Positions 5,481-62,278 of a stretch of 64,000 bases of DNA are shown piece by piece. The notes beneath the pieces are model-generated. The model was not told where the DNA came from and did no database searches. It worked only from the letters and a program-made list of their open reading frames with translations. The position numbers and the translations under genes are program-made. Within the stretch, counting starts at the first letter, position 1, and every line of letters starts with the position of its first letter. This DNA comes from Eledone cirrhosa (lineage: Eukaryota): NCBI GenBank assembly GCA_964016885.1, contig OZ024742.1:111724001-111788000 (forward strand). The letters are read 5' to 3'.

Positions 5481-5560
5481 GGCCAGGTTATAGAAAGTGA
5501 AGCGACAAAGACTCAAGGCTGATCAGTGCTAATGTCAAGGCTAATGTTAACATTACAAGG

Positions 5561-5645
5561 GGTCTGACGAGCCGCGTGTTACAGAGTCGGGTCAGATCGA
5601 TACAGATCGTGCCTTGAAATGATCAGTGGCGAAACGCGCGTCACC
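5561..5645 (+). ncRNA. Type I hammerhead ribozyme with enlarged stem II loop (family B)
   Basis: GGT-CTGACGA-GCCGC-[~50 nt]-GTGGC-GAAA-CGCGCG-TC-ACC. Stem I GGT/ACC, stem II GCCGC/GTGGC, palindromic stem III ACGCGCGT; followed by AATAAA and (TA)n at 5700. Confidence 0.75.
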
Positions 5646-5697
5646 ATCCAATAAATGTAATGAAAGAGTAACCAGTCGTCCTTGTTATCTTATTTCG

Positions 5698-5775
<78 letters not shown>

Positions 5776-9249: not shown

Positions 9250-12200
9250 AATTGCATCTACAAGACTAGAACTGTTTCATTCGAAGTAAAATGTCATTTT
9301 ATTTGGAATCTCCTAAAATATATGAATCTCCTAAAATATATGAAAAGTGGCTCAACTCTACCCCGATCATCGTCTGCAAAAAACTTCAAATAAAACCCAT
9401 CGCGAATGAACCAGAAAACCAACAAAAACTTGGGAAAAGATGGCGTTAGAAAAGTTTAAAATAGAAATAGAACTGTTGCGGATAAGAGCCAACTCCAACG
9501 AAGAAAAAATCAAGTCACTCGACCAACAGATGGAAACAGAAATCTCCAGGCACTCTGAAGGCCTACTCTATGAAAAAACCTTAAAACTTCGGAAAGAAAA
9601 TTCTGAGGATGAAGAACTAACATCCACCCAGCGATTGGAAAAAAACGCCACCTGGTTCAACAACTATGAAATGGATTTAAAAAATGAACAACATACAGGT
9701 AACCTATTTTTAAAACAAACTAAAACTCACACACCACACTCAAAAAAATAACAAAAAAAGTAACAAAACGTCCAACATAACCCCAGCAAAACTATGACGA
9801 TAATCCTAGAACCCATAGACAAAACTATAACGCTACTAACAAAAACCGAAGATTCCCCGACACAAGACAGGACACGATCCGCAGATTACAACCCACACAC
9901 AACCTATTCCAAAACCATAGACTCCAACCCACACAGAACCTGTTCCAAAATCGTAGATCCCAACCCACACAAAGGAACACAATCTACAACACGGAATATC
10001 AACAAAAGAACCTCCATACGTCAGAAACTTCCTTACAAGACCACACAACAACAGAGAAATGCTATTAGATATAATAATACCAATAAAAAAACAATTCAGA
10101 AAAATCATTTATTAGACCAAGGCTACATGACCCACGACACCCGGTTGCACAAACCGATTTTGAAAAACTGAAAATGATCAACCTTTCAAATACAAACTTC
10201 TCAGCCCAACAAATTAAAATTCTCTCCAAAGGACTGAAATTCACACCAACACCACAATACTCTAACCTCAATGAGATAAATGACGATATCTCATACTTCT
10301 GTAGAAAATTACGTGTCACAGAGGAATTTTTTGCTAAGGAGAATAACGATCAATCAATTACTACAACCCATCAAAAGGTAGAAACAGAGTTCTTGAAAAA
10401 TTTTATGACCGCATAGCAGCTTTCCCATACCATGAACTACCGCAACCTAAACCCAAACCCAACACGAGTCGAAGGGAAAGGGAGATTATCCATGAACTAA
10501 AAATCAATACGGACATTATAATTAAGGAAGGAAACAAGGGATGTACTGTCGTCATTATGGATGCTGAACAATATAAACATTCTATATTCTCTCTCTTACA
10601 AAATAATAACTACTATGTAAGAGTAAAAAACCACCAGCAATTTAAAAACGATAACCAGATTAAACACATTCATTTGTCGATACCAAGAAGACTTAACTAA
10701 AAAGGAACGCGATTATTTAACACATTTTGAATACAAAACCAACGGACTTCCGAAGATCCACAAGTGTAAAATAATTAACAATGGCTGTAAACAATCCACC
10801 TCAACCTGCATTGTAGCGGGCCTACAATGTGAAACACACAGACTAAGCAACTTATAGACATAATACTAAAACCAATTCTCAAACACATAGCAAGCCTTGT
10901 AAGAGACGATCGGGACCTCTTAAACCACCTCCCCAAACATGTCAACAACGACACTATTATTGTGTCTTTCAATGTAGTGAATCTCTACACAACGATCCCA
11001 CACCAATACGGACTAGGTGCAATAGGATTCTGGCTAGAGAAATATCCCAATGAGATACCTGAGAGAATAGAAAAAAGCTTCATCACCGAGGGATTAACAT
11101 TTATTTTACGAAACAACATTTTTGATTTCGATGGCAGTACTTACAAGCAAATATCCGGCACTGCGATGGGTACAAAAGCCGCTCCAAGTTATGCCAACTT
11201 AGTCATGGCATTCTTGGATGTCCAGATATATGAACAGTCCAAATCAAAATACAGATTGAACTTCCACAAATATTTATCAGAGAATTGGAAACGCTACTTG
11301 GATGATTGTCTCATTCTTTGGTCTCACACACTCGACCAACTAAATTATTTCAACAATTTAATTAAGGCATCAATAACCACATCCAATTCACAATGGAATA
11401 CAGCCAAGATTAACTCCCCTTTCTGGACATCTTAATCTTTAAAAAAGACACAAATATTGAAACTAACATACAAACCAACAGATGCCAAACAATACCTGCT
11501 ATTCACCTCCAGCCATCCAAAGAAAACGAGGATGAACATCCCTTCTAAGCTAGCAAGAAGAATTTGCACAATTGTCTCCAATTATGAAGACTTCAAGAAT
11601 TAAAGTAAATTCTACTTGAAAGACAGTACCCACCATTACTAATAAATAATAGAATAGAAAGGGCTAAAGCAATAGGCATTGATGAATTACGAAAACAGAA
11701 ACAAATTCAAGGTACGTCCAATATTCTATCATATATCTCAACACATAACCCAAGAAATGCAGAAGCTTACAACTCTATTCACAAGAACATCCCACTATTG
11801 AAACAAGACTCAAGAATGAAAAAGCCATTGAAACACACAAAATAATCAAAAGCAAAAGACAACCGAAATCACTAAAAACATTACTCACCAATGCCAAATT
11901 ACCTACCACAAACCAAAAAGCAACTGTCAAAAAATGTGGTCGCTCTAATTGTGGTACCTGCACTCACCTCATTGAAGGCAACACGTATACATTTCAATCA
12001 GGACAATATTTAGCTGTAAAAAATCACTTCACTTGCTCATCAAAAAATCTAATATATGCTAACTCACAGCCAGAAATAGAATGACAACAATTACGAGATC
12101 GCCAACAATTACGAGATCTAACCACGAGACAGATCCAACTAAGTGCACATCTAGACATATCGGCAAGTAATAAGACACCCAAATTCCAAGTCTTCCCAAT

Positions 12201-13477
12201 TTATCTTTGCGCTGACAATACAACAGAACAAATACGAATAAATAAGGAAAATTTATTTATTCAAAAATATAGACCAGCATTAATTATAGTTTAATATATA
12301 CATTATGTCAACACCATAACATGCTAACCATCCAAAGAGACACATAGATACACACACACACATAACACCTACTTTAGAAAATAAAAACCCGAACTAAATA
12401 AACCTTAACATACGTTAATGCTCTAACACCTTAACATGCTAACCACACACCCCACACACACATAACTCCCTCCCCCATTTCTACTAAGGGAATCACTTTC
12501 CTACACTACAAACACACACACACAAAATATATATATTCTCTCCATCTTAACATGCTAACAGTACTCCCCCTTACACATACACACACACACACGTAACACC
12601 CATACACACACATATAACACCCATACACATACACAACTCCCACCACCATTTCTACTATAGAATACTTTTCCTACACACACACTCACACACACAAAATATA
12701 TATATTCTCTCCGTCTTAACATGCTAACCATACTCCCACACACACATACACACACACACATAACACACACACACAAACTATATATATTCTCTCCCTCTTA
12801 ACATGCTAAATATGCTTCCCACACACACATACATACACACACAACTCCCTCCCCCATTTCTACTAATATAATCATCTTCATACACACACACACACACACA
12901 CACACAAGCACACAAATAAACATACATATCTTTACTTTCTTTATTTCAATAGAAAGTTTGAATTCTAACACCCCAGCGCACCAGCCATATTCACTGAACC
13001 AGAACAATTCTCCCCATCACATTTCACTTGACCATTATCTTTTGTTTGGCACAAAACTCTATAAAAGGCTACAAAAGAAATTCCCAAATAGGGGCGCAAA
13101 ATTTAATGAACTTGTTCACATGTCAGTCATAATTTCATTTATAACCAATCAAATTACATTTCACCACATGAGTCATACTCAGAACAACTCTCTCCATCCC
13201 TTTTTTCTTGACTATTATCTTTTCTTTGAGATAAAATTCTCTAAATGGCTATAAACAAATTCTAAAATACGGGCGCCAAATTTAATGTACTTGTCCACAT
13301 GACAGTCATAATTTCATTTATAACCAATCAAATTACATTTATAAAAATAAGCCTTCGTGAGCCACTTTTTTAAGTAAAAAGAAATTCAAACACAAACTGG
13401 CGCGAAAGCTGATGTGATTATTCACGTGACTGCATAAACCAACCAAACTACACTCATATATGAACAAACAACCTGAG

Positions 13478-19681: not shown

Positions 19682-20010
19682 TTCACCCGGGTGAGCACTC
19701 GATGTTTAGGTTCACTTCTGTGTCGAGGTGTAGAGCTATACAGAGTGTATTATATTGAAAAGATAACAAGGACGATTGGTTACTCCTTCATTAAATTTAT
19801 TGGTAGGAGACGCGTGTTTCGCCACTGATGAGCTCAACGTTTGATCTGTATCGATCTAGAATGTTAAGGGGTCCGTCAAGCTGCGGATTATTGAGTCGGG
19901 TAAGATCGATACAGATCGAACCTTGAGCTGATCAGTTCCGAAACGCGCGTCACCTACCAATAAATGTAATGAAGGAGTAACCAATCGTCCTTGTCATCTT
20001 TTCAATATAT
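19681..20010. mobile_element. Family B element as an inverted duplication (arms ~19751-19857 / 19903-20009) with degenerate HHR
   Basis: Arms are reverse complements; right side GGT-CCGTCAA-GCTGC..GAAA-CGCGCG-TC-ACC matches 5561-5700; flanked by (TA)n. Confidence 0.85.
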
Positions 20011-20211: not shown

Positions 20212-20375
20212 ATAATAAAAGGACAATTTGTTATGCCATCATTACGTTTATTGAGGAGCAACGCGCCTTTCGCTATTGATCAGCTCACGGTTCGATCTGT
20301 ATCAATCTGGCCTGTCTCCATGCTGTCATTAACACAACAGAGGTCCGACGAGCTTTCGATTCCAGAGTCGGAACG
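20212..20375 (-). mobile_element. Diverged family B fragment
   Basis: acgcgcctttcgctattgatcagctcacggttcgatctgtatcaatctg is the reverse complement of the family B core; ggtccgacgagc follows at ~20342. Confidence 0.65.
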
Positions 20376-20526
20376 CATAACAAATCGTTCTTTTATTATT
20401 ATATTTACACGCTGCTTAGTTCTAGATCTCTTCACAGACTGGAAACTACGCATCGAGTTCTCACTCGGATGAACGCACAGTAACTGCAATTTACATCCCT
20501 ATATATATATATATATATATATATAA

Positions 20527-21615
20527 GTACAAATTAATATATGATAAACACTACAAGTATATAATTGTTTGTATTGCAAATGACCAAGTTAGCTAGATTG
20601 AAAAAATACTAATTAAAGTAATACAGTTTGCCTGTCTCGATTTAAAATAGTAAATCAATAAAAACAATCCCATATTGGCAATAGCCGTGATACCTGGACA
20701 AATTTAAGTTTCAAAAGTCAAATCTGTTTGACAAATTTAAGTTTCAAAACTCAAATCTGTTTCGCAACAATAAGTGAAAATTCCATTCACTTATTGTTGC
20801 GAAACAGATTTGAGTTTTGAAACTTAAATTTGTCAAACAGATTTGAGTTTTGAAACTTAAATTTGTCCAGGTATCACGGCTATTGGCAATATGGGGTGGT
20901 TTTTATTGATTTATTATTTTATATCGAGACAGGCAAACTGTATTAATTTAATTATTATTTTTCAATCTAGCTAACTTGGTCATTTGCGATACAAACACTT
21001 ATATACTTGTATTAGTGTTTATCATATATTAATTTGTATTTCACGGCTCAGAAATATCTCTTTCTTTGAGCTATTTAATTGTAAAAGACTGTTTGAGTTT
21101 ATAACTCTATATATAGTATTATCGGCTCCATATGTTGAGCTACATTTTTTAGTCCCATAAAAACGGCTGCTATTTCTGGCGGCATGAGTATAGGACTGGC
21201 TAGACGCTGGGACACCATGTGCGTTCAACAACATATTTTTCTCTCAGTCTTCCTAAGTATTTTGAAGTGAAACATACCAATTTCTGGATACCTGCAGCTG
21301 AGCACAGAAATAGAATTTTCACTTATTTTTGCGAAACAGATTTGAGTTTTGAAACTTAAATTTGTCCAGGTATCACGGCTATTGCCAATATGGGTTTGTT
21401 TTTATTGATTTATTATTTTAAATCGAGACAGGCAAATTGTATTAATTTAATTATTATTTTTCAATCTAGCTAACTTGGTCATTTGCAATAAAAACACTTA
21501 TATACTTGTATTACTGTTTATCATATATTAATTTGTATTTCACGGCTCAGAAATATCTCTTTCTTTGAGCTATTTAATTGTAAAAGACTGTTTGAGTTTA
21601 TAACTCTATATATAG
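20527..21615 (+). mobile_element. Non-coding ~500-bp HHR-bearing unit (family C): inverted copy + truncated copy + full unit
   Basis: 20527-20777 is inverted relative to 20787-21039; 20787-21113 repeats directly at ~21318-21613; flanked by TA-rich tracts. Confidence 0.9.
21287..21374 (+). ncRNA. Type I hammerhead fold with variant core CAGCTGA and long palindromic stem III, family C
   Basis: GATACCTG-CAGCTGA-GCA..AAATAG..TTATTT..TGC-GAAA-CAGATTTGAGTTT-tg-AAACTTAAATTTG-TC-CAGGTATC; perfect 8-bp stem I, ~14-bp stem III. Confidence 0.72.
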
Positions 21616-21633
21616 TATATGTATAAGTATATG

Positions 21634-21667
<34 letters not shown>

Positions 21668-21698
21668 GACATACACACACACATATATATATATATAT

Positions 21699-21863
21699 AT
21701 AGGAACAAGTAAGACCCCGACGGCTGAGCTCAAGCCGTTTCTACGGCTAATTCTGTACAGCCGTCGGGGTTTTACTTGTTCCTATTACCCACTCTACTAC
21801 CCTAAGTATTGAGTATTTTGGTGCGTTATGGTCCACCTGGTTCCTTACCACATTTCCTTCGTT
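21699..21863. mobile_element. Short TA-flanked family D element with 28-bp inverted arms and HHR 3' half
   Basis: ataggaacaagtaagaccccgacggctg / cagccgtcggggttttacttgttcctat; minus strand GAAA-CGGCTTGAGCTCAGCCG-TC; second copy at 45629-45778. Confidence 0.75.
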
Positions 21864-22644: not shown

Positions 22645-25600
22645 TCTATATATTAATTTCAATAATGTCAGTATTCCGTGTGTCATAATTCTTGATTACC
22701 ATTGGTTCATAGGTTTCAAACGACTCCGCCCACTACAACGACGCCTAACTTAAATTAATATGCATAATTTCCAATGAGGGAGTGAGAGGGGAGAGTAAGA
22801 CACAAAGAGGAAAATATGAACGCTGTGTTGGATACACTATGTATATGTGTCAGTGTAGAGACATGTGTGCGTGTGTGATGTGTGTGGAAATAAGAGGGGG
22901 AGGAAAGCAATAACCATTAACATGTGTGCGTGGGAATGTACGTGCGCGTATGTTTATATGTGTGTGCGTGTAGCGTTCCACAGAAAGTAAAAACTATCAA
23001 CATGTGTGAGTGTGTGAGTGTGTGTAAGTGCACGGGTGCGTGTGTGCAAGTGTACGGGTAATTGTGTAAGTTTGCGTGCGTGTGCGCATTTCCATGCGTG
23101 TATGTGTGTGTACGTGCCGCGTACCACAATCGCCACGCAGTTTATCTGTCTGTGTGCCTGTCTGTCAGTCTAACATAAACAGAGTTGTGAAGGGAGTAAA
23201 TAGGGACCTTTTTTTACATTGACAGACATCTTTTATGTTTATTATTATGTCATTTTTTGACAATTGCTCGAAATGAATACTGATAATAAAAGCAATTCGA
23301 CTTTATCAAACAGTGACCTACAGCGGCGACGGCGTGCAGCCAGCAATTCTGAAAAACGGGCCGATCAGCGCCATTGTAACGCCGAACTTCAGAGGCGAAG
23401 ACGTGCCGCCATGAATAAAGAGGAGCTGGCTGAACAACGCAAACGAAACACTGGAGCCAAGCAGAGACGGCGTGCAGCGATGGTTGAAGACGAACTGGCT
23501 GAGCATCATCAGCAGATGGCCAGAATTCAGCGGCAACTGCGTGCTGCGATGGATGAAGAGGATCTGGCTGAACAGCGCCCGCGCAATACAGAAGTTCAGA
23601 GAATGTGTCGCCAAAGTGCTCCTCATTCCGGCAAAGAGGCTAGAAGGCGAACGAATAATATTGAAAATGGATCATGGCAACCGTGTCATTTTCAGATTGG
23701 TGGACGAGCAGAGTGTCCACATTGTGGAGCATTGCATTGGAGGCACGAACAGACGTGGACCACAATATGCTGTCATAAAGGAGCAGTTGAACTAGAAACC
23801 TTGCGAATGCCGGATGATGAGGAGTCACCGGAGTTTAAAATACTCAGTATGTGGGATGATCAAGGAGACCGAGGTAGATCATTGCGCAAATATTCGCGGC
23901 AAATTAACAATTCACTAGCTTTAGCATCGCAGAGAGTTAGTGAGATGTTTGAGAGTGGAGTATGGCAACCGAATGTAGTCATTCAAGGTCGTTTGTATCA
24001 TTGTATCGGTAATTTAGAAGTTACCCCAGGAGAGAGGCCTCGATTCGCTCAAATTTACGTTAACGATCCAGATTATAGTGAATCGGAGGAGGATATCAGG
24101 ATCGGTTGGATGAAGTTGCCGGGAAATATAACTGAACTTGATTTGCAACCATGGCTTAGACAGTGTAATCCTTATGTTATGGATTTCATGTTGGTGGCTG
24201 AACTGAAAAATGTTCAGCAGCAAACATTGGTGATTAAGGCTGACGCAGTGCCAAGGAATCAACACGAACGGCGATATAATGCCCCTGAAGGATTTCGTGA
24301 AGTTGCTGTGTTGATGGACGATAAGCCTGGATCGAGAGATATCGTCCTCAATCGCAGTGATGGTGCTCTCAAGACTATCAGTGAGTCAAATAGGGCATAC
24401 GATCCATTGTATTATTTTCTTTTATTCCCAAAAGGTGAAAATCCATGGAAAATGTCTGTTCATTTAGATGATCATGAGAATCAGCATCAATAGGGAGGTG
24501 TCAGTAGACACAATAATTCGATTCGCGATTTTTACGCGTTCCATTTGAACGAGAGGAATCAACAGAGAAATGCACTATTTCAAGGTAGCAGATTTTTCCA
24601 GGAATACTGTTGTATGGCATTCGCAAAGATAGAAGATCAAAGGCTAAATGATATAGCTACACATCAGCAATATATCAGAGCTGAATTGTATAATAATATA
24701 CAGGATGTGATAACAGCCGATGGTGCCAATTACAAGCAAATTGGTTGACATATCATTTTGCCATCGTCGTTCATCGGCGGCCCGAGACATCTGAACATTC
24801 GCTATCAGGATGCAATGGCTATTGTCAGAAAGTTTGGAAAGCCAGATTTGTTTATAACGGTTACATGCAATCCTGAATGGACTGACATTAAGGATGCACT
24901 TTTGCCACCAGTACAACAGCCAAAGGAACGTCCTGATATTGTGGCAAGAGTATTCAAAGGACATCTGAAAAATATAATGGATGATGTGGAAAAAGAAGGA
25001 ATCTTTGGAGGTATAGTTGCTTTTACATACATAATTGAATTCCAAAAAAGAGAATTGCCACATGCACATTTGCTGATTATTTTACATAGAGATTGCAAAT
25101 TGAGATGTGCTGAGGATGTCGACAGCATTGTGTGTGCTGAACTGCCGGAGAATGAGGCACTACGCAACTTGGTGGAAAAGTCATTGATGCACAACCAATG
25201 CGGAGTGGAAAATCGGAAAGCGCATTGCATGAAAAATGGCCAATGTAGTAAGCACTTTCCGAAATCTTTCGTCACGAACACTTCCTGGAACGATGGGGAT
25301 GCTCATCCCACATACAGAAGACGGTCGCCTGCCGATGGCGGTTTGGTCGAAAATGTAAACGGTCGACAGGTTACAAATCAATGGGTTGTGCCATACAATC
25401 CATATTTGATTATGAAATATCGTTGTCATATTAATGTGGAAATTTGTAGCTCAGTGAAAGCTTGCAAATATCTGTTGAAATATGTTTACAAACGTCATGA
25501 TCGGGCAATGATCAATGTCAGGAATGAGGCAGGTCCCAGGATGTTCACTCGATTGGATCTAGCGAAGCTTGCTGGAGATTGTTCGATTTTCATCTGATGG

Positions 25601-28600
25601 TTCACTGATGGTTCACTGATTGTTCGATTTTTCAGAAACTGACGGTTCACTTAGAGAATAGGCAAATGGTCTGTTTTCATGACACTAGAAGAGGTGTCGA
25701 AAGAATTGCTAACGCACCACCTCCTAAGACGGAATTGACTGAGAGCTTTACGTATGACAGGGGACATGCTTTGAACCCGGATCAAAGGCAACTCTACTGC
25801 GATTTCCCTTCGCACTATACGTGGGATAAGAAGGGAAAGAAATGGAATGATAGTGAACAAAAGTTGAGATACATGACTATTGGGCAGGTTTGTAATGACC
25901 ATCCAGCATCTGGTGATGTGTTTTATCTCCGAATTCTGTTGCATAGTGATTTTTCGAGAGGTAAACAGAGCTTCGCTGATTTGAAAACAATCAATGGCGT
26001 GGAATATGAAACATACCAGGCTGTGTGTCAGCATCTGGGACACCTTCAGGATGACGCTGAATAGAATAACGCCTAGGAAGTTGCAGGAACAACACAGATG
26101 TCAGCTCAAATAAGGCAGTTGTTTGTCACGATTCTAGGATTCTGCAATTCTGCCAATCCAGGAGAGTTATTTGAACGCGATTGGGGAACTATGTCTGATG
26201 ATTTTAGGCTTCATCTTCAGGTCGATGATGAAAATTTGATGAAGACTCTTGTTTTGCTCAATATTGAGCAACTGCTTGAAGTTCATTTCAAATGTTTAAC
26301 AGATTTCAATTTGCCAATTCCTGATGAAGAAATGCGGCAACGTGTCTTAGCATTGAACATGAGATTACAGCTTAGACGGTTGCCACTCAATAGGAGGGAA
26401 CTATTCCAGTTTGATCTATTGGAACAGCAACGTATTGTGGATGAACGTATGCGAATGTTGACCCAATCTCAGAGAGAATTGGACGATGGCGTTCTCCACT
26501 CGATTTCCACTAATGAGCAACTTTGTGTTTTCATAGATGCTCCAGGAGGCAACGGAAAGACATTCTGTTTCAACACTATGTTATCGGCAGTCAGAGCTCA
26601 GAGGAAGATTGCTCTCCCTGTGGCCACCAGTGGGGTTGCTGCCACTTTGCTGAGTGGTTGAAGTACCTTCCACTCATGCATCAAAGTTCCATTGGCTCCG
26701 GATGAGTTGAGTGTCTGTAACATTACAGGGAAAGTGAACTCGCGGGCCTTATACGCAATAAGTCTCTGATTATTTGGGAAGAGGCTCCAATGGCACACAG
26801 ATATTTGCTGGAGGCATTGGACAGAACTGTAAGAGATATCTGTGGTAGTGACCTGCCATTCGGTCGTAAGACTATCGTTATTGGTGGCGATTTCAGACAG
26901 GTGCTACCAATTGTTAGGAATGCTCAAAGAGCGCAAATTGTCGATGCATGTCTGAAAAAGTCCCCGTTGTGGCGCCATTTCAGAGTTTTGCGAATACACG
27001 GTAATATGCGACTTCGTATGTTCGTTCAAAACGAAGAGGCTGAGACATACAGCCGATGGTTGATGCAGTTGGGAAACGATAAATTGCCACACGATGGTGA
27101 TAATCAGACTGTAAGAATCCCATACCATTTGGTAATACCACTGGTCCGCCAAGCATTGATTGTCTGTGTGCTTCCTAATTTGAATTCTTCTTGGCAGAAT
27201 ATCTCCTGGATATCGGAACGCATTATTCTAACTCAAACGAATGCAACGGTCGATGAAATAAATTCACAAGTAGCCGGAATGTTTCCTGGGGAGGAATGGT
27301 TGACCGTCAGTGCAGATGCAATGAAGCCTAATCAGCAGAACAATATGGATGTTCCGACTGAGTATCTGAATTCACTTAAAATACCCGGATTTCCCCACAT
27401 ATTATATTGCTTAGAAATATCAATCATAATATCGGTATTTGCAATGGTACCAGATTGATTGTTGAGAGATTGATTAACGGAAGAGTTTTAGAAGCTAAAC
27501 TCCCAGGCAGAGAGGAATGGGTTCTCATTCCGAGGATCATGCTGAGACCAAGTGAAGATCTGCTGCCATTCATTTGGCAAAGGAGACAGTTTCCCGTCAA
27601 TTTGGCCTTGACTGTCAACAAGGCACAGGGACAGACTTTCAAGAGAGTCGGTGTCTACTTGAATGATCCAGCATTCAGCCATGGGCAACTGTATGTTGCT
27701 GCATCTCGAGTGTGCGATCCTGAGGGCATAACATTTGCAATTGATACCACTAACAGAGGAACAACCCTGAATATTGTCTATAATGAAGCTTTTAGCTGAT
27801 GTATACATATCTTTAATGCTATAAAGAAGCGCGTAAATGATTCGGACATTGGTGTTTTTTCATCAGTATTGTGAGCTTTGACAGAGTTATCATTTATGTT
27901 GAATGTCATTTATTGTCGATAATGAACAATAAAAACCAACAAGTTTTGTTAGAAATTGCCTTCAAACTTATCGCTTCTGATTGCCGTGGTAATAAAACCT
28001 CATCATATGCTGAGTCTGGCAAAAAGTTTGGTGCCTATAGCCGGCGAGGGCTAGAGTAATATTGAAAAACGATTCTATTTTCTAAGTAGAAGGATCCGCC
28101 ATTTGGAGTTCAAACCAGGCCACCTCCCTGAGTTGAACTCTGGGCAACATTGACTGTCTATTACTCAGTGGCTAAGACCTGGAAATTACTGAATAAATGT
28201 TTGTGTCATATAATTTGTTGTTTTATTATTATAGCTCACCACTTATAGATAAGCATGTTATCCATATCCATATTAATTTGGCATTTGTATAAACCATTTC
28301 AAGTAAATAGAGACCTTTTTTACATTGACAGACATATTTTATATTAATTATCCATATCTACATATAATATAAAATATTGGAACTTCCATCATCCTTTTGA
28401 GAAACGTGGAACAACCACCTCTATGCAATGATAGATACACGTTTTACAGTCAGGCAGACATGAACCACCTCCAAGAGGTCACTATTCTAGGTGGGAGCAC
28501 CTAGAATTGTTCATAGACTATGCACAAACCGTACAACGAAGAATCTGGTATATCTGGAAGATTTTGTTTACTGTTTTTTGAATCACACAGACAACACGGA

Positions 28601-44765: not shown

Positions 44766-44905
44766 GTCACTGAGGAGATCACATGTATGACGAATGAGCT
44801 TTGACAATAAACATGCGGTTATGTATGACGAAAGAGCTTCGACAATAATCATCCGGTTATTAAACCAACTAAATGGAAATTTGTGATAAAATGAAGTGAA
44901 AACCA
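44766..44905 (+). ncRNA. Family G PLE 3'-end fragment with hammerhead (GAAA mutated to GAAT) and duplicated 3' half
   Basis: GTCA-CTGAGGA-GATCA..TGAC-GAAT-GAGC-TT-TGAC, then atgtatgacgaaagagcttcgacaataa; matches 56407-56449. Confidence 0.65.
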
Positions 44906-49862: not shown

Positions 49863-52800
49863 AACAACAACTCTACGGACAACAACAGCAATAATAACGA
49901 TAGTAGTAATATAAACAATAACTCTGAGTATAGAAATAGCAGCTATAATAGTCATAACATTAGCAATAGTAATATTAACTATAGACAGAACAACCACAAC
50001 TACCACAATAATAATAAAAATAATAATAGAAACATTAACTAAAGACACAGCAGCAGCGACCACAGTAGTAATAACGGTAACAATACGAATAACAACAACA
50101 ACATCCACAGTCGTAATAATAGAAATAATATATGTAGCAACACTAATGATAGACAACAAAAAAAGAAACATAATACAAGTAACAACCACAATGGTAGAAA
50201 TAACAGTAACAATAACAATAACGGTGGAGAAAACAACAATACATCTAACAATCACAGCAACAATACATCTAGCAATCATAACAATAATAATAATGCTAAT
50301 GATAGGAACAACAACAACAACCATAATAACAATAATAGCAACACACACAACTATGACGATAGATATAATGACAACCCCTTAGAGAAACTATTCTTCAACC
50401 CAGCTGACAAAACATATAAGATGGGTAATATCTATCCTACGAGGTTACCCTTTAATAACAGAGTGTGCATACCATAACAAATAGATGACGAGACAGAGGC
50501 ACAGTTCACCATAGCTAGAAATAAGATTAGACAAATAGTAGACAGGTATGTAGAGGTCCAACAACTTGGGAGGAAACCAGTAGAAGGCTTGGTTAGCCTC
50601 AAGCAGCGCACAAGGGATGGTGAGGCAGTATGTCTACCCACGGATAAGTCTGGTAGGATGTCAATAGACAGCATGCTGAACTACATCAATGCTATGCAAG
50701 CCCACATCACCAAGACGAGCGAAATTGCACAGCAAATACATGATGTGGGAGAGAAAATCCTCAACCCTCACATGATGATATGGACCGACAACCTAAAGCT
50801 AAGCAGACGCACTGCCAACAACTTCCAGGCGTCTAAATATAGCATACCACACTTGTATGAGCTCCGCAAATACCACAAGACAGTCGACGACCCGACAACA
50901 AGACGACCAACAAGACCTGTATGCGGAGCAAATATAGCTAGCAACTACAGGATCTCCTACTTCCTCTCAATGGTTATACGCCCCATAATCAATATCTCCC
51001 CAGATGTATGTGACAGTACAGAGGACCTCCTCAGCAGAATCAGTGAGTGCAACAACAACAGGAACCTATCCAACTGCATAATAGGCAGTATGGATGTGGT
51101 ATCACTGTACCCACCCATTAACATTGATTTTGATGTGGAAAAATGTGTGGAGATGATCATTGAGAGTGAGGTGGAGTTCAGCGACGTCGACACAGACGAA
51201 CTGGGCCTCCTACTTAGACTTACCTACGACACTGACTACCTAGACAGCCATGACCTTAGACGTTTCTGTCCCAGTAGACCCATAAGAGGTAGACCCTCCA
51301 CCATAACCTCAATGGCAAAAAAGACTCCCATAGGAAGGTGGATTGGGTGGACCAAAGCTATACGGACCCGCCAAATCAATGATCAGGTAAGAAAAATGGT
51401 CGCACATGCAATAGGGGCTAGTATGAAAACTACCCTAAAGGGCTACATATTCAAGTTAAACGAGAAGATCTACACCCAAAATGAGGGAGCAGCCATTGGC
51501 GTCAGCATAGTTGGTGATGTTGCCAACCTTTTTATGGTATGGTGGGAAAGGAGACTGAAATATCTCCTTGATGAGAGCTCCATATACCTCATCATGTACT
51601 ATCTTAACGTAGACGACATCAATATCGTAATAAGGACATCCCCATAAGATTTAAAACGTAGCACAATGGAAAGTATCCAGCAGATACCTAATTCCATACA
51701 CCAGAGTATAAATTTAACTATCGACTACCCTTCCAAACACCATAACAATAGACTACTCTCTCGCCTATAGTGTTAATCCAGACTATCACTATAGACGAGA
51801 TTAAAACTATAGACGAGAGAGACCAAATTCTCCACTCACAATATGCTAAACCCATGGCCTCCAAATACCTGATACTCAAATACTAAGCAATGCCCAGTAG
51901 TGCTAAGTTTAATATTCTGATCGCAGACAAGGTACGAGTGATGAAGAATGTGTCCCGCATGTGCGACCCAACATAAATGGAAAGACACAACCAACACTTC
52001 ATCTACCGCATGCAGTTCTCTGGCTACAACCAAAGAGACAGAATCAGAGTATACGAAAGAGCCACGGAGAAGTATAAGACCCTCATAGAACTGGACATGA
52101 AAGGAATTTGACCATTGTACAGGAGCAAATCATGGAATAGCTTAGATAGGACTAGACATAAGATAGGGAAAGCCACCTCATGGTACGACAACCAGAGATA
52201 CCAGAATGTCATGTTTGTGGACGCTACCCCTGGAGGGAAATTAGCTAACCAGTGTAGAAAGGCCTTGAGAAATATCCACTTAAAGATTAAGGTGGTAGAG
52301 AAGCCAGGAACCAGCATAAAATCCCTGATCAGCAAAACCTACCCTTTTAAGAAAACCCACTGTACTAATAGGAAATGTATCATATGTAGAGTAAACCCCC
52401 GGATAAACTGTAAAACTAGAAGCGTAGTCTATAGCATAATATGTACAGAGTGTACTTGCAGAAACATGACAACAACATACATAGGCGAGACAGCTCGTAG
52501 CATAGGTGAAAGCATAGACCAACACTGGGGGGAACTAAAAGGACGAAAAAAAACGGTTCAGTACTATACAAACATAGAAGACAACAACACAACGGTGACA
52601 TAGACAACATAGAAGTTAGAATAATATCTAAACATAGAAATGACCCAGCAGATAGCCATATCAGAGAGCCGAGTGAAATAGAACTTAGAAGGCCAAGGCT
52701 AAACAGAAAAAATGAATGGAATAACAACACAAAAACAAACAACACTGACCTAATATAAGTATAAATACATAAATAAATAAACAAATAAATAAATAAATAC

Positions 52801-53280
52801 ATACACAAGCACAATAACAACAAACACATATAAGCACACACTAGTAAACTAAGATAGAATACATTAACCAATACACAGTCACACAAACAAGAACACACAT
52901 CACACAAAACACTATACACACACGCAAACGCATGCGCAGAGAAGACAACAAAATAAACAAGTAAATATATAAATAAACAGACTAAATAAAAATGGCGTAA
53001 GCATACAATGCAACGGGAGGAAACATAATAGCACCACTGACGATGTTGCAGATGTGCAACGAAAGAACTTTGTTAGACTATATATATGTGTTTGTGTCTA
53101 TATTGTATCTGTATTTTTGACCGTTGGTCAGTCAATGGCAATATTGAGGACCGAATAAATTAAATTAACCGATATAAAAGACACAGAAGCGAAAACCAAC
53201 CAAACAGTGAGTGTGTTCTGTTATTAATTCTGGCAATATTATTACACAAATATGAACCTCCCCAAGTATATCAATATATA
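49860..53280 (+). mobile_element. Penelope-like element, decayed: AAC-rich leader, RT, GIY-YIG, 3' HHR
   Basis: PTDKSGR..; GSMDVVSLYP; YTQNEGAAIG; YLNVDDIN; CIICR..NCKTRSVVYSIICTEC..YIGETARS..; RLNRKNEWN; 5' limit uncertain. Confidence 0.92.
53033..53074 (+). ncRNA. Minimal type I hammerhead in the 3' region of the 49.9-53.3 kb PLE
   Basis: ACCA-CTGACGA-T-GTTGCA-gatg-TGCAAC-GAAA-GAAC-TT-TGTT. Confidence 0.72.
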
Positions 53281-56299: not shown

Positions 56300-56628
56300 A
56301 CACACACAAACCGGGATATAAGGCATGCGTAGCCTAAAAACACAGCTTACAAAAACAAGATGATGTAAATAGAACATAAGAGAGACAGAAAATAACAACA
56401 AATGTAGTCACTGAGGAGGTCACAGAATGTATGACGAAAGAGCTTTGACAATAAACAAATAACCCACCATCCGTTTATTAAACCTATCAACCGGAATTGA
56501 AGTGAAAATCAACAGGCATGTGTGTTTTTCTTGGCAGCATCACCCTCCCAAACTATAGCAATAGCTGTTTCAATACACGTTGTCAGATAAGAAATCTCGC
56601 TAAAGAAATACAGAAACGAGATATATAG
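55832..56628 (+). mobile_element. 5'-truncated Penelope-like element (GIY-YIG C-terminus, CA tract, HHR, family G 3' end)
   Basis: EHLRELLDGK/SVLQHNKMKH..KLEIKILSTH..DAMLLQIT..KNEWN, paralogous to 52520-52720. Confidence 0.8.
56407..56449 (+). ncRNA. Type I hammerhead ribozyme (PLE 3' region)
   Basis: GTCA-CTGAGGA-G-GTCA-cagaatgta-TGAC-GAAA-GAGC-TT-TGAC followed by AATAAA. Confidence 0.78.
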
Positions 56629-62031: not shown

Positions 62032-62039
<8 letters not shown>

Positions 62040-62278
62040 ATACTTTGGGAGGGTCATGTTGCCAATAAGAAACACACGCACCAGATACTTTCACTTCAAT
62101 TTATTATTATAATAAATTTATAAATTTATAAATTTATTATAATAATAAATTGAAGTGAATGCAACTGGTGCGTGTGTTTCTTATTGGCAACATGACCCTC
62201 CCAAAGTATAACAATATCGGTTTCAACACACGATTTCAGATAAATAATCTTGCTAAACAAATTCAGAAACGAAATATA
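62032..62278. mobile_element. Palindromic family G element
   Basis: Near-perfect ~90-bp arms centred near 62122, with the right arm extended; homologous to 39453-39671 and 56495-56627. Confidence 0.88.

What the first reader, a model, noticed from the sequence alone, without database searches (positions are those of the whole stretch)
20527..21615. Second, unrelated ~500-bp HHR-bearing non-coding unit with the same inverted + partial-tandem architecture
Seen: an inverted arm, a 5'-truncated copy and a full ~500-bp unit. The full unit holds an HHR fold (21287-21374) with a perfect 8-bp stem I and an unusually long (~14-bp) palindromic stem III. The inversion point (~20781) falls in the stem II loop, and the stem III hairpin is tandemly duplicated (~32 bp) in both palindrome arms, so that duplication predates or accompanied the inversion. 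Inference: an independent retrozyme/mini-PLE family, with template switching at ribozyme structure.
Basis: partly seen in the sequence, partly recalled or inferred. Interest (0 to 1): 0.75.

Follow-up and report, generated by a model that had tools for sequence, protein, structure and literature searches.

The report
Penelope-copied repeat with core-mutated hammerhead
This is one copy of an abundant 499-base non-coding repeat that was likely pasted into TA microsatellites by a Penelope-type jumping-gene enzyme; it keeps the shape of a self-cutting hammerhead RNA but has changed letters in the cutting core, so it is predicted to cut slowly, and its relatives likely lost and later regained one of those letters, which gives a natural series for testing whether such elements need their ribozyme.

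Summary
The anatomy is real: an inverted arm, a 5'-truncated copy and a full 499-bp unit in (TA)n, with a type I hammerhead fold at 21287-21374 (z -4.55; 5 of 8 stem I pairs change on both sides across relatives). It is a non-coding family with at least 742 exact-match hammerhead halves in this genome. In 60 of 74 two-armed insertions one arm ends at unit position ~420 and the other at ~500: the Penelope 'tail' footprint. The core is not CUGANGA: U4 is replaced in 431 of 434 matches, and this copy's subfamily adds A6C. What does track the ribozyme is the stem III duplication: three independent ones, including this copy's unique 33-mer, end exactly at the predicted cleavage base. A tree places the U4-less lineage between relatives with U4, implying loss and regain. 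No coding partner is proven and cleavage is untested. The scan has noted two-armed hammerhead repeats and U4 variants before on other DNA in this genome. Verdict: new variant of a known kind.

The parts
20500..20525 (.). (TA)n target microsatellite, left flank
   Evidence: 161 of 179 fixed-site arm ends in the family have (TA)3 within 24 nt
20527..20787 (-). Inverted arm: unit positions ~420 (outer end, inner start site) to ~188, with the 33-nt duplication
20697..20762 (-). Tandem 33-nt duplication of A13..C17 (stem III) in the inverted arm
   Evidence: found at no other locus by the pattern
20779..20787 (.). Inversion junction: 7-nt spacer read on the inverted arm (stem II loop) and a 2-nt overlap at 20786-20787
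20786..21119 (+). 5'-truncated copy, unit positions 199-499, with the 33-nt duplication (20802-20867)
21120..21618 (+). Full 499-bp non-coding unit; outer end at the outer start site
21124..21141 (+). GGCUC..GAGCU hairpin 4 nt downstream of the outer start site (seen across the tandem joint); candidate start signal
   Evidence: sequence; kept in relatives B, C, D and in other repeats; not significant by folding energy (z -0.17)
21287..21374 (+). Type I hammerhead fold with U4A and A6C core, 8-bp stem I, weak stem II, 13-bp stem III; predicted cut after 21366
21539..21618 (+). 80-nt 'tail' between the two fixed arm ends
21544..21571 (+). GGCUC..GAGCU hairpin 5 nt downstream of the inner start site; candidate start signal
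   Evidence: sequence; region not significant by folding energy (z -0.54)
21619..21700 (.). TA/CA microsatellite, right flank

Best explanation
This is one insertion of a non-coding 499-base repeat family that is likely copied by the reverse transcriptase-endonuclease of a Penelope-like element, and whose hammerhead fold has a changed core and is predicted to cut slowly. Shown: the family sits in (TA)n; two-armed insertions nearly always have one arm ending at unit position ~420 and the other at ~500; arms run through the hammerhead and through the unit-to-unit joint; the arms meet at scattered points with short overlaps; stems I and III are kept by compensatory changes; U4 is replaced in nearly all copies. 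Inferred: the borrowed protein nicks both strands of a TA run, the two DNA ends prime reverse transcription inside the RNA at two sites 80 nt apart, each just 5' of a GCUC..GAGC hairpin, and the two cDNAs are joined head to head, giving inverted arm + partial copy + full unit. Inferred: the template is mostly RNA that is continuous across the cut site (uncut multimer, or monomers re-joined or jumped end to end), so fast cutting is not needed in each cycle. Inferred: cutting still happens at times, because three independent stem III duplications end exactly at C17 with no microhomology, as a jump or ligation onto a cut 3' end would give; such duplications lengthen stem III while keeping the fold. 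In this one copy the inverted arm likely folded back at the stem II loop and re-copied its own duplication into the start of the other arm.
For: Fixed ends: 60 of 74 two-armed insertions have one end at ~420 and one at ~500, 2 have both at one site, 12 have one other end (119 non-redundant loci of 133). Ends lie at TAT next to (TA)n. Partial tandem + inverted 5'-truncated copy + tail in (TA)n is the published Penelope-like pattern (PMC8557442, passages); the tail is the stretch between two internal RT start sites, both strands are nicked and extended, and hammerhead mutants still insert in vitro (PMC11167929, parts 1-2 of 4). Read-through: among the 148 arms, 119 passes cross the predicted cut and 1 stops within 4 nt of it; 43 arms exceed 520 nt, longest 981. 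Joints: 52 of 74 overlap or abut. Same template: rare variants shared by both arms 11 of 286 against 9 of 2307 in random pairs. Structure: 97% of cells paired, 7 pairs with two-sided changes, 0 of 500 shuffles reach the score (26 rows chosen by me to span subfamilies). Core: 3 of 434 exact matches have U4; 3 of the first 100 of 308 in the older branch; no other letter at position 4 reaches 10% in three DNA runs of one sample. CUGA-turn mutants had low activity in a mutational scan (PMC9901934, passage); A6C lowers activity in Mg2+ (PMC7151607 part 1 of 4; PMC3088659 section 8). Duplications of 33, 20 and 37 nt all end at C17; 16 of 17 genome-wide pattern hits have that junction and the 17th is not a family member. 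Two loci join this unit directly to a coding Penelope-like family within one two-armed structure (L047, L100).
Against: No cleavage or RNA data. No coding element shares detectable DNA with the unit: none among 30 loci of the window's own coding family, and no GCUC..GAGC motif in three further coding 3' ends read. The L047 and L100 joins could be deletions between neighbours, since that coding family abuts about 10 of 119 loci anyway, and in L100 both arms end at outer sites. The tail is 80 nt, not the 30-40 nt described. The C17 argument rests on three events, and slippage at the base of a strong hairpin could favour the same place; one further internal duplication (16 nt, in the tail of L077) lies elsewhere. 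The start hairpins are not significant by energy. Only one stem II pair column varies and none on both sides. Shared variants between arms could come from gene conversion. The window's two + copies share a variant at unit 335 that the inverted arm lacks while the inverted arm and partial copy share the duplication, so this copy needs the extra fold-back step or conversion.
Confidence: 0.6

Rival explanations
1. Same Penelope-type copying, but the hammerhead is efficient in the cell (helped by protein or by its long stems), the RNA is cut to monomers and circularised like a classical retrozyme, and both reverse transcriptases run round the circle.
For: Read-through of the cut site and of the unit joint fits a circle; successive passes share rare variants, 10 of 194 against 0.4% in controls; duplications end at C17; the anole element's hammerhead cleaves only with protein present (PMC11167929); a U4C viroid variant stays infectious (PMC3088659); stems kept by compensatory change during the U4-less period.
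Against: Two core changes in the window's subfamily, each reported as harmful; arms are short (median 379 nt, maximum 981), unlike long rolling arrays; stem II is weak in this copy.
Confidence: 0.2
2. [quoted passage not shown]
For: U4 replaced in 431 of 434 matches; A6C spread on top of it; hammerhead mutants do not block insertion in vitro; stem III length varies even between arms of one insertion, so the region is slippage-prone.
Against: The duplicated units have no flanking microhomology and stop one base beyond the hairpin, at C17, in 3 of 3 cases; U4 returns in descendant families together with further compensatory stem I changes, which is easier if some activity was still under selection.
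Confidence: 0.15
3. One reading: the inversion arises by template switching at the ribozyme's stems.
For: This copy's junction is in the stem II loop and looks like a fold-back; fold-back-like joints are a real minority, 6 of 74 with both arms stopping within 5 nt (p 0.006).
Against: No enrichment in the hammerhead (12 against 13.1; 14 of 148 against 26 under a uniform model); of the 9 joints with arms stopping within 15 nt, only this copy's lies in the hammerhead.
Confidence: 0.03
4. The unit is the terminal repeat or a fragment of a long coding element, or a DNA-level satellite or foldback transposon.
For: Penelope-like pseudo-LTRs carry hammerheads and leave many truncated ends (PMC4209133, parts 1-2 of 4); two loci join the unit to coding sequence.
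Against: The unit joins its own start directly in tandems; 45 one-armed loci share no common 5' extension; no open frame over 58 codons; strand-specific fold and covariation; copies are dispersed and 5'-truncated.
Confidence: 0.02

Closest known systems
Metazoan non-LTR retrozymes (Cervera and de la Pena 2020, PMC7229834, passages seen; Li, Clavereau and Pollet 2026, 10.64898/2026.07.22.740005, parts 1-3 of 5 read)
   Same: Non-coding unit of a few hundred bases with one type I hammerhead, in monomers and short tandems, proposed to be moved by Penelope-like elements.
   Different: Core is U4A (plus A6C here), so it would fail a canonical descriptor; stem III is 13 bp rather than 1-2 bp with a palindromic loop, so it should fold as a monomer; insertions are two-armed with fixed ends and at most about 2.5 units per arm; no circular RNA shown.
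EN+ Penelope-like elements: insertion structure (Craig et al. 2021, PMC8557442, passages and section 11) and Poseidon PAc mechanism (Frangieh et al. 2024, PMC11167929, parts 1-2 of 4)
   Same: Partial tandem plus inverted 5'-truncated copy, a tail at one end only, (TA)n targets, two internal start sites, hammerhead cleavage apparently not needed for insertion.
   Different: No ORF; tail 80 nt against 30-40; arm ends carry TAT matching the target, whereas PAc starts at a site not homologous to the cut DNA; partner clade not determined.
Non-autonomous Chlamys elements such as MRC1 (PMC8557442, passage)
   Same: Non-autonomous, pLTR-forming, head-to-tail derivatives moved by Penelope-like proteins.
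   Different: Those resemble their autonomous partners at the 3' end and mostly lack hammerheads; no such resemblance was found here.
Natural hammerhead core variants: U4C viroid, A6C Bcep176, U3-A8 (PMC3088659 section 8 and passages; PMC7151607 part 1 of 4; PMC4209133); large-helix-III hammerheads of fungal and protist PLEs (PMC4209133)
   Same: Single core changes with low but detectable activity are known; U3-A8 occurs in relative C; long stem III occurs in fungal and protist PLE hammerheads.
   Different: U4A fixed over a long lineage, U4A with A6C together, and apparent regain of U4 were not seen in the papers read.

Membership tests
Type I hammerhead ribozyme | Three stems around the core, stem I open, supported by covariation | tested here: met
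   Stem I 5 of 8 pairs and stem III base 2 of 7 pairs change on both sides; stem II base 94.6% paired but no two-sided change; fold z -4.55
Type I hammerhead ribozyme | Core CUGANGA..GAAA..UH | tested here: not met
   Window CAGCUGA (U4A, A6C); 3 of 434 family matches have U4. C3-G8, G5, A9, GAAA and UC are present in the window copy. Relatives B and D are mostly CUGANGA, C is UUGAGAA
Type I hammerhead ribozyme | Self-cleavage after H17 | not testable with these tools
   Only indirect: three duplications end at C17
Metazoan non-LTR retrozyme | Non-coding repeat unit with one type I hammerhead per unit, monomers and tandems | tested here: met
Metazoan non-LTR retrozyme | Complete (canonical or minimal) hammerhead motif in two consecutive units | tested here: not met
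   The window has one whole fold with a variant core; tandems with two folds exist but carry the variant core
Metazoan non-LTR retrozyme | Expressed as circular RNA | not testable with these tools
   No RNA run was available
Penelope-like element (non-autonomous derivative) | Partial tandem plus inverted 5'-truncated copy | tested here: met
   74 of 119 loci two-armed
Penelope-like element (non-autonomous derivative) | Tail at one end, between two fixed start sites | tested here: met
   60 of 74; tail 80 nt, longer than the described 30-40
Penelope-like element (non-autonomous derivative) | Insertion into (TA)n | tested here: met
   161 of 179 fixed-site ends
Penelope-like element (non-autonomous derivative) | Shared terminal sequence with an autonomous partner | tested here: inconclusive
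   No match in the coding 3' ends examined; two direct joins to one coding family; most coding families of this genome were not examined
Autonomous Penelope-like element | ORF with RT and GIY-YIG endonuclease | tested here: not met
   Longest stop-free frame 58 codons; no shared 5' extension

The most novel reading that the evidence does not exclude
A hammerhead lineage lost the conserved U4 yet kept cutting weakly in the cell for about 0.26 substitutions per site of master evolution; reverse transcriptase jumps or ligations onto its own cut 3' ends duplicated and lengthened stem III at least three times; and the lineage carrying the 37-nt duplication then walked position 4 from A to C back to U, restoring a canonical core in young, abundant descendant families. 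The ribozyme's cut site would thus be a recombination point that reshapes the ribozyme itself.
Probability: 0.3. Interest if true: 0.72.

Novelty: new variant of a known kind. Interest (0 to 1): 0.5.

Why it matters
What the hammerhead does for Penelope-like elements and animal retrozymes is still open: it has been proposed to cut out monomers for circles, and also found dispensable for insertion in vitro. This superfamily gives a dated natural series in one sequence background (CUGAGGA, CAGAAGA, CAGAUGA, CAGCUGA, CCGAAGA, CUGAUGA, UUGAGAA; stem III from 6 to about 28 bp), each with copy numbers, so cleavage rate can be set against amplification success. Duplications ending at C17 would be a genomic record of cutting in vivo. 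It also shows that descriptor searches requiring CUGANGA miss whole mobile families.

Tried and rejected
Rfam scan: no hammerhead family among 96 matches at E<=1; no tRNA. Sequencing runs: no RNA holder listed; three contig sets of one sample hold the family as DNA and no piece spans the locus. First junction mapping with single-unit references gave a false excess at unit positions 1-10 (18 against 3); it vanished with natural tandem references (2 against 3). The apparent depletion of junctions in the hammerhead vanished after allowing for how loci were found (the exclusion rule is approximate). Partner search: no profile match in 30 loci of the window's coding Penelope-like family; no start-hairpin motif in three other coding 3' ends; no CAGANGA minimal hammerhead of another family in 1.08 Mb of loci. 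A pattern for intermediates between subfamilies gave only 2 hits. A first tally of letters at the cut site failed through a bad pattern and was redone: no excess of junction errors is evident. RNA-editing scar: among variants shared by all passes A>G 25 against T>C 15 (p 0.037) and G>A 24 against C>T 7; private variants 62 against 93; weak and not independent across sub-lineages, so not used as support. The age proxy contains a few artefacts from flanking repeats (four 0.0 values, one 18.2) and loci picked as best hits; used only for order. Per-column core counts are biased by the extraction pattern and are not used. One apparent off-site duplication (L264) was a chance match. Luense et al. 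2017 (PMC5785218) is not held. Circle against linear multimer was not resolved.

Full report
OBSERVATION. The window holds, between TA microsatellites, an inverted arm (20527-20787), a 5'-truncated copy (20786-21119) and a full unit (21120-21618, period 499). The full unit folds on the + strand as a type I hammerhead: stem I 21287-21294/21367-21374, core CAGCUGA, stem II 21302-21332, GAAA, stem III of 13 pairs, UC, predicted cut after 21366. It was the only hit of my hammerhead descriptor in the window (the descriptor needs a 6-bp stem I and misses minimal motifs). z is -4.55 on + and -1.76 on -. In the context of the whole unit stem III pairs at about 1.0, stem I at 0.6-0.7 and stem II at 0.05-0.07; with the partial copy included stem I falls to 0.06. 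Rfam gives no hammerhead hit. A 33-nt tandem duplication is in both palindrome arms and not in the full unit.

FAMILY. A DNA search of the own genome (3.0 Gb) gave 3103 first-look candidates, 40 scored, with full-length matches at 89-97%; candidates include relatives and are not a copy number. Exact patterns on the 5' half of the hammerhead give 434 and 308 matches for two branches, with 0 in the reversed controls: at least 742. The unit has no frame over 58 codons, joins its own start in natural tandems, and 45 one-armed loci share no common 5' extension. So it is a free-standing non-coding unit.

INSERTION ANATOMY. Of 133 loci, 119 were non-redundant and 74 two-armed; in 60 of 74 one arm ends at unit ~420 and the other at ~500, in either order (31 and 29); 2 have both ends at one site and 12 have one other end. 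Ends fall at TAT running into (TA)n (161 of 179). I noted the two fixed ends before reading earlier notes (note). This is the Penelope-like pattern of partial tandem, inverted truncated copy and one-sided tail (PMC8557442, passages), and in the anole Poseidon element the tail is the stretch between two internal RT start sites, with both target strands cut and extended (PMC11167929). Here the tail is 80 nt. Arms read through the predicted cut 119 times and stop at it once; 43 of 148 arms exceed 520 nt, the longest is 981. Rare variants are shared by both arms ten times more often than by random pairs (11 of 286 against 9 of 2307), which fits one template but also conversion.

INVERSION POINTS. 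Mapped on natural tandem references, 14 of 148 inner ends lie in the hammerhead (26 under a uniform model), 3 in the stem II loop (3.6 expected) and 1 near the cut. Allowing for how loci were found, 12 are seen against 13.1 expected (p 0.88). 52 of 74 joints overlap or abut, 11 have 1-10 extra letters and 11 more. Fold-back-like joints are a minority: 9 within 15 nt (p 0.048), 6 within 5 nt (p 0.006), and only the window's is in the hammerhead. In the window the loop is read on the inverted arm, that arm and the partial copy share the duplication, and the partial and full copies share a variant at unit 335 that the inverted arm lacks. The simplest reading (inference) is that the cDNA primed at 420 made the duplication, folded back at the loop, re-copied it and then joined the other cDNA.

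THE HAMMERHEAD IS UNDER STRUCTURAL SELECTION BUT ITS CORE IS CHANGED. On 26 rows chosen to span subfamilies and relatives, 97% of cells pair, 5 of 8 stem I pairs and 2 of 7 basal stem III pairs change on both sides, and no shuffle of 500 reaches the score; slid controls pair at 15-43%; the three basal stem II pairs show no two-sided change (related rows inflate such counts). The core: 0 of 73 have U4 with long flanks; 3 of 434; among the first 100 listed, 73 are CAGAAGA, 10 CAGCUGA, 9 CCGAAGA, 5 CAGAUGA, 2 other A4 forms and 1 CUGAAGA (counted by hand); in the older branch 3 of the first 100 of 308 have U4. Published data: mutations in the CUGA turn gave low activity apart from the C-G swap (PMC9901934, passage); A6C gives low activity in Mg2+ and better in Mn2+ (PMC7151607, PMC3088659); a U4C viroid variant is weak in vitro but infectious. 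I found no rate for U4A in a natural long-stemmed hammerhead. The prediction is slow cutting; it is untested.

LOSS AND REGAIN OF U4. Searches from neighbours in the flanks found three related families: B (547 nt, CUGAGGA), C (597 nt, UUGAGAA with the known U3-A8 swap) and D (about 500 nt, mostly CUGAGGA/CUGAUGA, 6-bp stem III). A maximum-likelihood tree of 46 rows (56 chosen, 10 dropped because my extraction pattern failed; U4 copies are over-represented among the 5 old-branch rows) is a ladder: D, old branch, middle branch, CAGAUGA and CAGCUGA copies, the 37-nt duplication lineage (CAGAAGA then CCGAAGA), then B and C, with L220 (CUGAUGA) intermediate. The same order appears with the whole hammerhead left out. 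Holding B, C and D together is rejected (p-AU 0.001 without the core, 0.004 without the hammerhead), but I named the group after seeing a first tree, C has a long branch, and B shows some old-looking states, so mosaic inheritance is not excluded. End branches shorten along the ladder, and median divergence between passes within an insertion is 5.7% (old), 4.2% (middle), 3.0, 2.9, 2.6 (B), 2.3 (CAGCUGA) and 1.7% (C), which supports a root at the D/old end. Inner branches over the U4-less stretch sum to about 0.26 changes per column.

DUPLICATIONS END AT THE CUT SITE. Stem III grows from 6-7 bp in D and the old branch, by added AAATTT units, to 13 bp, and by tandem duplication to about 28 bp; a duplicated palindrome refolds as one longer stem, and B and C carry further compensations in it. 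Three independent duplications (33 nt in the window, 20 nt in L064/L074/L099, 37 nt in a whole lineage) all end exactly at C17 and have no flanking microhomology; one other internal duplication, 16 nt in the tail of L077, lies elsewhere, and the rest detected are at inversion joints, flanks or AAATTT runs. A genome-wide pattern found 17 hits: 2 in the window (so its 33-mer is unique by this pattern), 14 of the 37-nt kind, 1 chance match. A jump of the reverse transcriptase, or an RNA ligation, onto a cut 3' end would give this; slippage at a hairpin base is the alternative. Three events are few.

PARTNER. None proven. The window's coding Penelope-like family (50478-53260) and three other coding 3' ends show no shared sequence or start hairpin. 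Two loci join the unit directly to a second coding family with a C-terminal GIY-YIG domain inside one two-armed structure: in L047 a sense RT-coding stretch runs into unit position 84 and the opposite arm is that family's 3' end; in L100 the opposite arm is its 3' UTR. That family abuts about 10 of 119 loci, so deletion between neighbours is possible. Earlier notes label such families Hydra-type; I did not test the clade, and the linker and DKS motifs seen do not match the CxCX5C and DKT of section 11 of PMC8557442.

COMPARISON AND VERDICT. It works like a non-autonomous Penelope-like derivative and resembles metazoan non-LTR retrozymes (PMC7229834 passages; preprint 10.64898/2026.07.22.740005 parts 1-3 of 5), but fails the canonical-core test, and circles are not shown. 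I did not see U4A fixation, its regain, or cut-site-anchored duplications in the papers read; Luense et al. 2017 and the supplements of PMC8557442 and PMC4209133 were not seen and may bear on this. Earlier notes of this scan report two-armed hammerhead repeats with fixed ends, oversized hammerheads of 518-601 nt (possibly B and C) and U4A, U4C and U3-A8 cores in other families of this genome; no note matched this unit by sequence or place. New variant of a known kind; interest 0.5.

Noticed in passing
window 19751-20009, 20219-20321 and 5557-5727: Another two-armed hammerhead repeat family, unrelated in sequence; the copy near 5579 has a canonical CUGACGA core, a very long stem II and a short palindromic stem III.
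   Followed up: partly
window 50478-53260: Broken coding Penelope-like element with C-terminal GIY-YIG domain and a minimal CUGACGA hammerhead at 53037; its endonuclease region gave 26,368 first-look candidates in the genome.
   Followed up: partly
window 9400-12290: Broken Penelope-like element resembling the Neptune type (label recalled; weak RVT_1 hit, E 8e-6).
   Followed up: no
window 23261-27799: Helitron remnant (Helitron_like_N E 6e-40, PIF1 E 4e-37).
   Followed up: no
window 62035-62270: Short two-armed 3' end of the second coding Penelope-like family (the one joined to the unit in L047 and L100), again with a tail on one arm only.
   Followed up: partly
window 21699-21785: Short inverted repeat of a very abundant family right beside the element; by far the deepest part of the stretch in the DNA runs.
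   Followed up: no
window 44770-44860: CUGAGGA minimal hammerhead-like motif with a 38-nt tandem duplication reaching into it; a similar motif at 56411 has none. Worth checking where that duplication ends relative to its cut site.
   Followed up: no
L047:150-1757 and L100:2719-3760: Two-armed structures with one part from this unit and the rest from a coding Penelope-like family; possible template switches between co-bound RNAs.
   Followed up: partly
L225:200-1000; L161:300-1400; L211:1-700; L115, L117, L209: Further unrelated-looking repeats with the same pair of GCUC..GAGC hairpins 79-135 nt apart; L225 has a canonical hammerhead with a long stem III.
   Followed up: partly
L251:520-2980: Penelope-like element resembling the Poseidon type (label recalled) with long open frames and a minimal CUGAAGA hammerhead in its 3' UTR.
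   Followed up: no
family-wide: Variants shared by all passes of an insertion are skewed to A<->G on the RNA strand (49 against 22 T<->C), a weak hint of A-to-I editing of the template.
   Followed up: partly
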